From positions 1 to 27,417 of IMG/VR virus record IMGVR_UViG_3300025585_000140: DNA of 27,417 nt; one strand, given 5' to 3'. Every line of letters starts with the position of its first letter. The first letter of the stretch is position 1. The position numbers and the translations under genes were made by a program. The DNA comes from a virus (lineage: Duplodnaviria > Caudoviricetes). The notes under the pieces are model-generated. The model did not search any database and was not told the DNA's origin. It saw only the letters and a list, made by a program, of their open reading frames with translations. Below are positions 15,480 through 25,953 of the stretch, piece after piece.

Positions 15480-16310
15480 TTATGGTGCTGCCGCATACGT
15501 TGGGATGACAATTGTCCCAAAGTCTGCGGAGTTGAAACGGGTCTTCTTCAAGCCAGCCATCATGCCAGCCGAAACACCCAACTGGTTGCCGTAGTCGAAG
15601 GTTTCTTCGACGTACTTGACCTTCTCGTCCGGGGACGATGAGTCACGGCCCGTGGCGAACACTGCGGACTGAGCGCCGCAGAAGATTGCGCGGCGGGTGT
15701 TATCAACTGCCAGAGATGTGACAGTGCTGACACCCTTGGGAACGCGCGTGGCTTCATGGATGATGATGCCGCTGTACTCGCCAAGGCTTCCCTTGTAGAG
15801 CGCATCAGCGCCTTCACTCATGCCCGCCTGCAATGCAGAGCGGTTGACTTCCCACCACGTCACAGTGGCCGCTGTCGCCTCGCGGCGGAGCGAATACACT
15901 TGGTTCGGGTGAAGGAAGGCCACGTACTTTTCCTGACCGCCAATCTTGAACGGGCGGATCAGGGGCTGGCCCAGATCGTCCATCGTCTTGGCGCGGACAA
16001 GCGCGCGATCCAGCAGCGACGTGGTGAACGTGTCGATGGTGGACAGCGACTGGTCGCCAGTGCCGATGTTGGAGTTCGGGAAGATGATGTTGTTGGTGGA
16101 CGGAGCCACCGTGGCATTCATTCCCGTGTACTTCACATCAGTCTGCGCGGTGTTGCCCGCGATCTGATTGAAGAACCATGTGTCCATGCGGTCGGAGAAC
16201 CAGTCCGCAAGGGCGTCCATGTTTTCCTGACGCACGTCGAACAGCACGCGCTGTTCCGACATCTTGCCGGCACTCCGTGTGGCGTGCCGAAGTTGATCAA
16301 TGAGCAAGTC
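15480..16310 (-). CDS. Major capsid protein (N4-gp56 family), exon 2
   Basis: DLLIDQLRHA, MSEQR, YVAFLHPNQ, GSLGEYSGIIIHE, RAIFCGAQ, EETFDYGNQLGV, GLKKTRFNSADFG; 276 aa. Confidence 0.92.
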   Translation of the reverse strand, partial: DLLIDQLRHATRSAGKMSEQRVLFDVRQENMDALADWFSDRMDTWFFNQIAGNTAQTDVKYTGMNATVAPSTNNIIFPNSNIGTGDQSLSTIDTFTTSLLDRALVRAKTMDDLGQPLIRPFKIGGQEKYVAFLHPNQVYSLRREATAATVTWWEVNRSALQAGMSEGADALYKGSLGEYSGIIIHEATRVPKGVSTVTSLAVDNTRRAIFCGAQSAVFATGRDSSSPDEKVKYVEETFDYGNQLGVSAGMMAGLKKTRFNSADFGTIVIPTYAAAP

Positions 16311-16388
16311 CGTAGTGTTCAAGTTGGCTCGCTATGCCAACCCCGCCTTTCGGCTGCTGCATGTCACCATGCAGACCAGATCATATCA

Positions 16389-17000
16389 TCACCCCTGAGG
16401 GGTGCGGTGCGCTTCCAGCCGCTTGGCTGTACTCCCTTTCGGGATGATCGTTACGCCTTCCTTGTGAGGACAAATTCCGCCGTTACGGGACTTACCGTGT
16501 TGGCAGTTCATGCAGAGAATTTGGAATTCGTGAGTAGGCCACGTCCCATGTTCGCGGAAATATCTGTAGACCACCTGAGTTAATCGTGACCCACTTCCTT
16601 CGCCTGCCTTCCTTCGCTCGTACCCATCATTGTTGATGTGGTCGATACTCAGGAAAAGAGGCTCAGTCTCTCCGCAGCATTTGCAAATGTAGCCACCAAG
16701 ACCAAGGTAAGCCTTCTCCTTGGTTTGGTAATTCCAGCGCTTGGCTTTTTCTGCTTCCGCGCGCCGAAACCCGGCTTCATCGACAGCCATCTTCGCTGCC
16801 CTGTAGCGCCGCATACTGGCAAGCCCAAGAGCGCGTATCCGCTCCCGGTTCTTATCCCGCCAACCCTTCTGCCGCTCTAGTCCACATTTGCGGCACTCGT
16901 TTCGACGGTACTTCCTGCCGTTGCCTTCGCTTGTGCACGTGTTGAATTTTTCGAGGGGCTTTTCAACGCCGCACTTATTGCAAATTTTGCTCTGCATCAC
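16389..17000 (-). CDS. Intron-encoded HNH-type homing endonuclease with N-terminal zinc finger
   Basis: CNKC...CRKC finger; CKCCGE...LSIDHINNDG...ILCMNCQ.GK nuclease; starts in the L6 loop and reads through the ribozyme core to the 3' side of P8. Confidence 0.9.
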   Translation of the reverse strand: MMQSKICNKCGVEKPLEKFNTCTSEGNGRKYRRNECRKCGLERQKGWRDKNRERIRALGLASMRRYRAAKMAVDEAGFRRAEAEKAKRWNYQTKEKAYLGLGGYICKCCGETEPLFLSIDHINNDGYERRKAGEGSGSRLTQVVYRYFREHGTWPTHEFQILCMNCQHGKSRNGGICPHKEGVTIIPKGSTAKRLEAHRTPQG

Positions 17001-17023
17001 CGCACCTGATCAATTACCAGCGC

Positions 17024-17052
17024 AGTGTATTATTTATCAATTCCTCTATCAA
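17024..17052 (-). promoter_or_regulatory. Sigma70-like promoter inside the intron driving the endonuclease
   Basis: TTGATA (17052-17047), 17-nt spacer, TACACT (17029-17024), in an AT-rich patch about 25 nt upstream of the ORF start. Confidence 0.6.
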
Positions 17053-17144
17053 GGCTTGGCTCGGGATTGTCTCAGTTTTTCTGAGATGTTCCCCGAGTTC
17101 ACACCGTTTTCACTCACAACTTACGCTGCGAGGCGACCGTGATA

Positions 17145-17408
17145 ATCGTAATACGTGCTCAAAGCCTCTTCGTTGCCTTCGAGCGTGTCATCGCCCGAAA
17201 TACCGGCACCGGAGAGCTGCATACGAAGACCAATGCGGATACGGTCGCCCGCACTCTTCTTGGTTTCGTCTTTCCACTGGACAAGCGAGTCCGCCGACTT
17301 CCCCAGGAACCGCGAGAAATACGTTTCGCGCAGTGCCTGATAGAAAAGCTTCTTGGACCACAACTTGACCGCAAGGGGGTGATTCACCCCATACGTTGAA
17401 GCTGCCAT
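17145..17408 (-). CDS. Major capsid protein, exon 1
   Basis: AGGAG RBS; MAASTYGVNHPLAVKLWSKKL...AGDRI...GDDTLEGNEEALSTYYD (88 aa). Confidence 0.92.
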
Positions 17409-25448: not shown

Positions 25449-25477
25449 TTTGTACCGATTCACCTCACTTTTTTCAA
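25449..25477 (-). promoter_or_regulatory. Putative late promoter
   Basis: TTGAAA (25477-25472), 17-nt spacer, TACAAA (25454-25449), in the only sizeable gap upstream of terS. Confidence 0.5.
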
Positions 25478-25953
25478 GCGTAAAGATACAAAAATTCGTC
25501 AGCCTCACACCTGTTGTTCTTTGAAAGGTTTTCGACCGCAGGGATTACCCGTAAGTTTGCAACGACATGAAGACCGCAAACTGCCTTGTGCTTGATTGGA
25601 ATAATGTGGTCGACGTGATGCGGGACGCCCGTGGTTTCCGACCGCGCTTTGGCTTCCTCGTAAATCTCCAGGATCTGCTTTTTGTCCTGCCATGCTGGGG
25701 TTGCGCGCTTGAGCAGTCTGGCCCGCGCCCTGCTGCGCTCGGTTGCCTTCTCTGAGCGCCGCCCTATTCCCTCGTCCGACCAGCGGTACGCAAGCTTCTG
25801 GGCCTTTTGCAATTGGCGCTTTGCCCTGTACCTGCACTCGGCACAGGCTCTTAACACTGTCTGCGATTTATCCGCGTAGTCGATGAAGTCACTCAGCAGG
25901 CGAACCTTGGCACACCCGCCGCACTTGATGAACTGCTGCCTCTCGGGGATCAA
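25474..25953 (-). CDS. Free-standing HNH endonuclease with N-terminal zinc finger
   Basis: TTG start after GGAGG; CGGC...CAEC; ATPAW; HHVDHIIP...VCGLHVVANL.VI...ENLSKNN. Confidence 0.92.
   Translation of the reverse strand: MIPERQQFIKCGGCAKVRLLSDFIDYADKSQTVLRACAECRYRAKRQLQKAQKLAYRWSDEGIGRRSEKATERSRARARLLKRATPAWQDKKQILEIYEEAKARSETTGVPHHVDHIIPIKHKAVCGLHVVANLRVIPAVENLSKNNRCEADEFLYLYA

What the first reader, a model, noticed from the sequence alone, without database searches (positions are those of the whole stretch)
17000..17052. Degenerate copy of the intronless insertion site overlapping the endonuclease promoter and RBS: candidate autorepression operator
Seen: immediately upstream of the endonuclease start, 17029-17000 reads TAC ACT GCG CTG GTA ATT GAT CAG GTG CGG (YTALVIDQVR). 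The spliced exon junction reads TAC GAT GAC TTG CTC ATT GAT CAA CTT CGG (YDDLLIDQLR). They align without gaps at 20/30 nt, share the core ATTGATCA, and most mismatches fall at first or third codon positions. The copy begins exactly at the -10 box of a TTGATA-N17-TACACT promoter and covers the AGGTG RBS. Known: T4 I-TevI represses its own promoter through an operator resembling its homing site, and endonuclease genes are thought to invade introns at target-like sequences. Inference: this HNH enzyme either autoregulates through a target mimic or retains a fossil of its invasion site. The shared bases predict its recognition sequence.
Basis: partly seen in the sequence, partly recalled or inferred. 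Interest (0 to 1): 0.85.

Follow-up and report, generated by a model that had tools for sequence, protein, structure and literature searches.

The report
Homing-site mimic at intron endonuclease promoter
A group I intron in a phage capsid gene carries, over the predicted promoter of its DNA-cutting enzyme gene, a 20-of-30-base look-alike of the intron-free site, and some related introns at other sites carry look-alikes of their own sites, so the enzyme likely binds there to switch off its own gene, as one T4 phage enzyme is known to do.

Summary
Bases 17029-17000 match the spliced capsid-gene junction at 20/30: the best match among 54,776 30-mers of the contig apart from the 3' splice junction itself, and rare even with -10 box, RBS and hairpin fixed (34/200,000). 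In 58 related introns at 20 capsid-gene sites, the region ahead of the HNH gene resembles its own site more than other sites (permutation p 5e-5 to 8e-4; 12 of 58 clear); 3 of 7 held-out introns repeat this. DNA behind the ORF shows no signal, against a split invasion scar. Against: most introns show no clear mimic, including the closest relative L002; the codon-position argument is not significant; binding is untested. Best reading (0.65): an I-TevI-type autorepression operator in a different nuclease family, re-tuned as the enzyme changed targets. The idea is in print for I-TevI (shown) and I-TevII/III (predicted), and this scan noted similar mimics on other DNA.

The parts
17145..17408 (-). 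Major capsid protein gene, exon 1 (88 codons, ends ...Tyr-Tyr-Asp)
   Evidence: PF13252 profile 2-83, phrog_334 1-85; last exon base 17145
16311..17144 (-). Group I intron, 834 nt; U.G P1 with IGS at 17137-17134, terminal G at 16311; P 17101, Q 17068, R 16459, S 16387
   Evidence: relatives with short or displaced inserts pass the RF00028 gathering score in 3 of 4
17047..17052 (-). Predicted -35 hexamer TTGATA; its first three bases overlap the 5' strand of intron stem P6a (17054-17050, partner 16464-16460)
   Evidence: sequence
17024..17029 (-). Predicted -10 hexamer TACACT; equals target positions -6..-1
   Evidence: same hexamer at the same 32-nt distance from ATG in L002
17000..17029 (-). 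Homing-site mimic (candidate operator), 20/30 to the spliced junction; best-matched part 17014-17000
16998..17027 (-). Predicted RNA hairpin (-14.3 kcal/mol) hiding the RBS in the long capsid/intron precursor; a transcript from the internal promoter would lack most of its 5' arm
   Evidence: unpaired probability of RBS-start 0.18 in precursor vs 0.39-0.48 from predicted starts
17003..17007 (-). Shine-Dalgarno-like AGGTG, 5 nt before ATG 16997
   Evidence: Sequence
16389..17000 (-). HNH (His-Me) endonuclease ORF in loop P6a, 203 aa from GTG or 202 from ATG 16997; N-terminal C4 zinc finger (C7,C10,C36,C39), long helix 52-100, C-terminal HNH with C106/C109, D120-H121, C163/C166, Q167; 3' end runs into intron core elements R/P8
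   Evidence: (phrog_1035 E 2.5e-16, phrog_2255 E 1.5e-14)
15480..16310 (-). Major capsid protein gene, exon 2 (276 codons, starts Asp-Leu-Leu-Ile-Asp-Gln-Leu-Arg); its first 24 bases are the part the mimic copies
   Evidence: PF13252 profile 85-375

Best explanation
The 30 bases are likely an autorepression operator: the intron's HNH endonuclease would bind this copy of its homing site without cutting it and so block the predicted promoter that drives its own gene. Shown by sequence: the copy overlaps the -10 hexamer and RBS, matches the conserved exon-2 side of the target, and departs from it almost only where -10 box, RBS and hairpin need other bases. Shown by comparison: a subset of related introns carry copies of their own, different insertion sites at their promoters. 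Inferred: the enzyme cuts intronless capsid alleles near this junction; it reads mainly positions 0..+23, while the conserved GA at -3/-2, which both the mimic and the intron-bearing 3' junction lack, is needed for cutting; the hairpin keeps the endonuclease untranslated on the long capsid precursor; together the two layers would limit stray cutting and keep ribosomes out of the intron core.
For: 20/30 match beyond three nulls. Own-site test on 58 introns, 20 sites: site-level permutation p 5e-5 (floor of 20,000) in three settings and 8e-4 in the fourth; 12 of 58 with z>2 vs 3.4% of non-cognate pairs; the window beats 54 of 54 other-site junctions. Against the intron's own capsid gene: 15 of 85 at p<=0.05, one-per-site Fisher median p 5e-4; signal peaks at offsets -15 and 0 and is near zero far away. 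Held-out: 3 of 7 with z>=2.7, Fisher mid-p 0.004. The 12 clear cases cover 9 sites, lie in either the P5 or the P6 loop, within 17 nt of the best -10 hexamer, and are scattered over the quick endonuclease tree. At the window's site, 4 of 6 introns carry ATNGAYCAR, each at a different place in the promoter region, vs 0 of 59 elsewhere. The mimic keeps 7 of the 9 positions conserved in >=80% of 59 intronless alleles; the two misses are G-3 and A-2. Excess matches over the non-cognate null are at codon positions 1 and 2 (68%, 65% vs 53%, 55%), not 3 (39% vs 41%). Precedent with the same layout (operator over internal promoter plus RBS hairpin, ORF running into the core): I-TevI (PMC2988022, passages).
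Against: No binding, cleavage or transcription data. 46 of 58 introns show no clear mimic. The closest endonuclease relative L002 (same site, about 46% identity, SH-aLRT 100) keeps the -10 hexamer, spacing and hairpin but no mimic (z -0.5). Within a site, own exon variant is not significantly preferred over sister variants (28 vs 22 of 50, p 0.07-0.14). The 4 of 9 free-standing relatives that could be tested show no mimic. The codon-position pattern is also expected, roughly, from an old copy whose exon drifted at silent sites. The promoter is a 9/12 consensus match only. The target is inferred from the insertion site, not mapped, and the window's enzyme has Gln where 47 of 70 relatives have Asn after the last CxxC (20 of 70 share Gln).
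Confidence: 0.65

Rival explanations
1. Non-functional relic: a piece of capsid exon was copied into the intron during repair of a homing break and was then kept only as raw material for promoter, RBS and hairpin; the enzyme gains nothing from binding it.
For: Explains own-site specificity, absence in 46 of 58 introns and in L002, varying position relative to the -10 box (-17..+17), loss of third-position matches, and non-significant within-site tracking.
Against: Needs repeated capture of exactly the +0..+20 exon segment into the promoter at 9 sites; four different placements of the same core at one site; the matches that survive are the conserved target positions (7 of 9) and the mimic matches its own host allele (20) better than 58 of 59 other alleles (mean 14.7).
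Confidence: 0.17
2. The site is bound, but the outcome is not repression: it acts as a non-cleavable sink that holds the enzyme on its own genome, or binding modulates timing or activates the promoter.
For: Some mimics lie in the -35/-10 spacer or downstream of the start rather than on the -10 box; the intron-bearing allele already keeps 24/30 of the target at its 3' junction, so own-genome binding sites exist anyway.
Against: All 12 clear mimics lie within 17 nt of the best -10 hexamer, where a bound protein normally blocks RNA polymerase; a sink need not sit on the promoter.
Confidence: 0.06
3. Chance plus layout: the -10 box, RBS and hairpin, with a partly dyad-symmetric target, produce the likeness without any link to the enzyme.
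For: Fixing these features lifts the expected match from about 7.5 to 11.9 of 30; reverse-complement control is slightly positive (z 0.49); generous shuffle p is only 0.011; the finding was picked from a large scan.
Against: 34 of 200,000 constrained simulations reach 20; family-wide and held-out own-site signal; no signal behind the ORF.
Confidence: 0.05
4. Invasion scar in the sense of Loizos et al. 1994: a free endonuclease cut a target-like sequence in the intron and inserted there, leaving the two halves on either side of the ORF.
For: In 7 of 12 clear cases the start codon lies 21-27 nt after the position equivalent to the insertion site; published precedent for I-TevII (PMC3984707, passage).
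Against: [quoted passage not shown]
Confidence: 0.04
5. RNA-level decoy: the mimic pairs with the intron's internal guide sequence so that the ribozyme cleaves or circularises at the endonuclease message.
For: The mimic spans the junction and keeps the U at -1.
Against: Only 2 of the 4 P1 pairs can form (mimic CACU vs exon CGAU against the guide at 17137-17134, read); likeness is strongest at +9..+23, outside P1/P10, and at null level at -6..-1 across 12 mimics (44% vs 43%).
Confidence: 0.03

Closest known systems
I-TevI operator in the phage T4 td group I intron (Edgell et al. 2004, as reviewed in PMC2988022; passages read)
   Same: Homing-site look-alike (15/20 there; best 20-nt window 15/20 here) over the internal promoter of an intron endonuclease gene, RBS-sequestering hairpin, ORF running into the intron core, operator lacking the cleavage determinant (shown there, inferred here).
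   Different: GIY-YIG enzyme and T4 late promoter there; here an HNH enzyme with N-terminal C4 finger and C-terminal nuclease, a sigma-70-type promoter, a capsid host gene, and a family with many different targets. Binding and repression shown there, untested here.
Putative operators of I-TevII (nrdD) and I-TevIII (nrdB, HNH) (PMC2988022; I-TevIII biochemistry PMC1865063, passages)
   Same: Predicted from sequence only; I-TevIII is an HNH intron endonuclease with zinc fingers that bind DNA.
   Different: I-TevIII has the HNH module first and fingers last, the reverse of this protein; single cases without an own-site statistical test; the word operator does not occur in PMC1865063.
Endonuclease-gene invasion model for I-TevII/sunY (Loizos et al. 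1994, as described in PMC3984707; passage)
   Same: Intron sequence next to the endonuclease ORF resembles the exon junction.
   Different: There both ORF flanks contribute and the fused flanks are cut; here the likeness is contiguous, upstream only.
His-Me finger nucleases: PHROG 1035 (endonuclease VII), PHROG 2255 (HNH), Hpy99I beta4-alpha2 zinc module (PF18275), Geobacter Gme HNH
   Same: Profile hits; weak fold likeness of residues 1-46 to Hpy99I (Z 4.8, rmsd 3.0, 45 aligned) and 87-185 to Gme HNH (Z 3.8, rmsd 4.3, 69 aligned).
   Different: No solved relative by sequence, no fold match at E<=0.001; best GenBank phage hits 30-40% identity (13 records).

Membership tests
Group I intron (RF00028) | 5' exon ends in U paired to G of an internal guide sequence; intron ends in G; in-frame spliced host gene | tested here: met
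   P1 exon 17148-17145 with 17134-17137, terminal G 16311, spliced peptide matches intronless L349
Group I intron (RF00028) | Catalytic core P3-P9 recognised by the covariance model | tested here: met
   Window: partial hit 26.5 bits, E 1.9e-4, below gathering because the ORF splits the core; 3 of 4 relatives with short or displaced inserts score 60.6-67.6, above 50
Group I intron (RF00028) | Self-splicing in vitro or spliced RNA in vivo | not testable with these tools
   Needs RNA or a splicing assay
HNH (His-Me) homing endonuclease | beta-beta-alpha-metal motif with catalytic His and metal ligands | tested here: met
   D120-H121 and C163xxC166 conserved in 70 sequences; phrog_2255 and phrog_1035 hits; last ligand Gln here, Asn in 47 of 70
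HNH (His-Me) homing endonuclease | Cuts the intronless allele near the insertion site and drives homing | not testable with these tools
   Indirect only: endonuclease clades follow insertion sites on the quick tree; intronless relatives occur in the same runs
I-TevI-type autorepression operator | Homing-site look-alike overlapping the endonuclease's own promoter | tested here: met
   20/30 from the -10 hexamer to the start; nulls; promoter itself only predicted
I-TevI-type autorepression operator | Look-alike tied to the enzyme's own target across relatives | tested here: met
   Between sites yes, in a minority of introns; within sites not significant; absent in the closest relative L002
I-TevI-type autorepression operator | Operator lacks the cleavage determinant | tested here: inconclusive
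   Mimic lacks the conserved G-3/A-2, but the cut site is unmapped
I-TevI-type autorepression operator | Enzyme binds the operator and lowers transcription | not testable with these tools
   Needs EMSA, footprint, reporter
I-TevI-type autorepression operator | GIY-YIG enzyme and T4 late promoter (features of the T4 case itself) | tested here: not met
   HNH enzyme, sigma-70-type promoter: works like it, not homologous
Endonuclease invasion scar (Loizos model) | Target halves on both sides of the ORF | tested here: not met

The most novel reading that the evidence does not exclude
In this widespread family of capsid-gene introns, each change of endonuclease target is followed by building a matching operator in the P5 or P6 loop, independently many times, so autorepression is a general requirement of homing-endonuclease retargeting outside T4, and the promoter region can be read as a label that gives the binding site of an uncharacterised nuclease.
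Probability: 0.35. Interest if true: 0.72.

Novelty: new variant of a known kind. Interest (0 to 1): 0.52.

Why it matters
In the papers found here, autorepression by a homing endonuclease is demonstrated for one enzyme (I-TevI) and only predicted for two others. This locus opens a natural series: one nuclease family, at least 21 insertion sites in two capsid families, with cognate enzyme-target-operator trios that can be cross-tested. It would show whether self-repression is general, how operator and target co-evolve when an enzyme is retargeted, and it gives testable binding-site predictions for a nuclease family with no solved relative. The 30-base element also packs four roles (promoter box, operator, RBS, hairpin), a compact case of overlapping constraints.

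Tried and rejected
Rfam at gathering score finds nothing in the window. Within-site covariation, striking by eye for L005/L010, is not significant over 50 introns. Free-standing relatives ahead of P22-type coat genes: 4 of 9 testable, no mimic. Three introns with deleted endonucleases (L239, L262, L310) show no mimic, too few to count. Split-scar control negative. IGS-decoy idea rejected on pairing. No solved relative by sequence; fold searches gave only weak matches; a single-sequence fold of the HNH domain failed (pLDDT 43.5) and was not searched. The careful tree did not finish; only the quick tree was used. No RNA holder listed, so promoter use and splicing could not be examined; no variant inside 17000-17052 was among the 40 rows shown (72 not shown), which proves nothing. 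L001 and L348 are near-identical copies of the locus and were not counted as support. L479 was left out of the held-out test because it has no canonical junction. Literature searches listed no paper on this intron family or on a tested HNH operator; the library lacks most subscription papers and no supplements were read.

Full report
Setting. The window is a phage contig with terminase, P22-like portal and a PF13252 (N4-gp56-like) major capsid gene on the minus strand. The capsid gene is split at 17145/16310 by an 834-nt group I intron. Exon 1 covers profile positions 2-83 and exon 2 positions 85-375; the intronless relative L349 reads YYD-DLLINQ across the site. Rfam sees only part of the core in the window (26.5 bits, E 1.9e-4), but 3 of 4 relatives with short or displaced inserts pass the gathering score. 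An HNH ORF (17000-16389) lies in loop P6a and runs into the core. A contig from another study spans 16203-17268 with 2 differences, and contigs that skip roughly the intron occur in three of the four runs laid.

The observation. 17029-17000 matches the spliced junction at 20/30. Among 54,776 30-mers of the contig, both strands, the junction's matches are 24 (the 3' splice junction itself), 20 (this site), then 17. In the spliced capsid gene the mimic's best position is exactly -6 from the site. In a generous search space 33 of 3000 dinucleotide shuffles reach 20. The promoter TTGATA-N17-TACACT is a 9/12 match, weak alone. The codon-position remark does not hold: mismatches are 4/2/4 (p 0.30).

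The same bases fold into a hairpin, 17027-16998, that hides AGGTG (-14.3 kcal/mol; -6.3 if the exon 30-mer is put in its place). The predicted unpaired probability of RBS and start rises from 0.18 in the precursor to 0.39-0.48 for transcripts starting at 17018-17015. Nine of the ten mismatches to the target lie in the -10 box (2), the RBS (3) or the 5' arm of the hairpin (4). With -10, RBS, start and hairpin fixed, random sequences match 11.9 of 30 on average and reach 20 in 34 of 200,000. So layout explains part of the likeness, not all.

The family. Protein and DNA-pattern scans gave 427 sequences, 288 with this endonuclease, 160 with a complete intron and flanks, 85 clusters, all in capsid genes of two families, at 21 sites. 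Junctions came from homology to uninterrupted proteins plus P1 pairing; 13 of 85 were set by hand from candidate lists, and one of these (L224) needs a terminal A. The region tested was fixed by rule: P5 loop plus P6 loop up to the start codon. Against windows of the intron's own capsid gene, 15 of 85 reached p<=0.05; drawing one intron per site gave 4.8 of 21 sites and a median Fisher p of 5e-4 (worst of 1000 draws 0.04); the window scored 11 against 5.8 +/- 1.2, unmatched by any of 361 overlapping windows. The site-averaged signal peaks at offsets -15 and 0 (z 0.76, 1.01) and lies between -0.43 and 0.62 for windows not touching the site (76 introns). In an own-versus-other matrix of 58 introns (3 with deleted ORFs and 24 of 28 near-identical members of one clade left out) the site-level permutation p was 5e-5, the floor, in three settings and 8e-4 in the fourth; 12 of 58 had z>2 against 3.4% of non-cognate pairs. 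A later scan gave 8 new clusters; 7 had canonical junctions and 3 of these scored z>=2.7 with the settings unchanged (Fisher mid-p 0.004). I had noticed two of the three by eye before running the test. At the window's own site 4 of 6 introns carry ATNGAYCAR in the promoter region, at four different places, against 0 of 59 at other sites (p 2e-5; motif chosen after looking; three of the four enzymes are 46-64% alike). [quoted passage not shown]

Shape of the mimics. In the 12 clear cases (9 sites) matches are 65-69% at 0..+12, 58% at +12..+18 and at null level at -6..-1; they exceed the non-cognate null at codon positions 1 and 2 but not 3; all lie within 17 nt of the best -10 hexamer. These 12 were selected on score, so the profile is descriptive. 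The window's mimic keeps 7 of the 9 positions conserved in at least 80% of 59 intronless alleles and misses G-3 and A-2; it matches its own allele at 20, the others at 14.7 +/- 2.3, one of them also at 20. On the quick tree endonucleases group largely by site and the mimic-bearing ones are scattered (deep branches weak).

Evidence against. 46 of 58 introns have no clear mimic. L002, the nearest enzyme, at the same site, keeps TACACT, the 32-nt spacing and a hairpin but has no mimic: hairpin and promoter are the more constant features. Within sites, own exon variants are not significantly preferred (p 0.07-0.14). Free-standing relatives show none in 4 of 4 testable. Nothing here shows binding, cutting or transcription.

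The protein. The model (pLDDT 86, alignment of 70) has an N-terminal C4 finger, a 49-residue helix and a C-terminal HNH domain with a second zinc site. Likeness to Hpy99I's zinc module and to Gme HNH is weak; there is no solved relative by sequence. Separate binding and cutting parts are what binding without cutting needs, but this is inference.

Mechanism. Most likely (0.65): the enzyme binds the exon-2 side of its target; cutting also needs bases just upstream of the insertion site, absent from both the intron-bearing allele and the mimic; bound at the mimic it blocks its own promoter, while the hairpin silences the copy of the ORF in the capsid precursor. The likeness and its own-site specificity are shown; promoter use, target, binding and repression are inferred. 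The main rival (0.17) is an exon fragment copied in during repair and kept only as scaffold.

Known and new. The review PMC2988022 (passages and section 16 read) reports this arrangement as shown for I-TevI and predicted for I-TevII and the HNH enzyme I-TevIII, so neither the idea nor an HNH candidate is new. PMC3984707 (passages) gives the invasion-scar model; PMC1865063, PMC8096241, PMC3073962 and PMC11878797 were searched for passages only. Seven searches listed no paper on this intron family or on operators tracking targets across a family; capsid-gene introns as such are in print (PMC3706429, listing only). This scan has noted similar mimics beside other endonuclease promoters (8 listed) and a capsid intron with an HNH gene in another genome; I did not check them and they are not evidence. 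What this case adds is the comparative series across many targets. Verdict: real, a new variant of a known kind, interest 0.52.

Noticed in passing
L007:1899-2432, L008, L435, L466, L484: Free-standing members of the same endonuclease family sit just upstream of intronless P22-type coat genes, about 93 nt from the site that sister introns occupy; L007 nests inside that intron clade on the quick tree. A natural case for collaborative homing or intron loss.
   Followed up: partly
L013:330-1071: [quoted passage not shown]
   Followed up: partly
L055, L239, L262, L310: Introns whose endonuclease is reduced by internal deletion to short remnants; L055's -10 region resembles the FFNQ codons expected after its site, but its exon 2 is missing.
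   Followed up: partly
85 clusters: All introns caught by the endonuclease/core pattern lie in major capsid genes (two unrelated families), at 21 sites, some only one or two codons apart; one more site appeared.
   Followed up: partly
L052, L060, L009 group, L130 and others: In P22-type coat introns the endonuclease frame starts in P5 and reads through element Q; L052 has no standard start codon in frame.
   Followed up: no
L224 3' end; L479 5' end: Non-canonical splice ends: L224 restores the frame only with a terminal A; L479 lacks a U at the expected P1 wobble position.
   Followed up: no
window 25474-25953 (-): A second HNH-like ORF (phrog_26577, phrog_1035) just upstream of the terminase genes.
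   Followed up: no
L264: Shares an 11-base stretch starting at the -10 hexamer with the window although its insertion site differs, and also forms an RBS hairpin; no mimic of its own site.
   Followed up: partly
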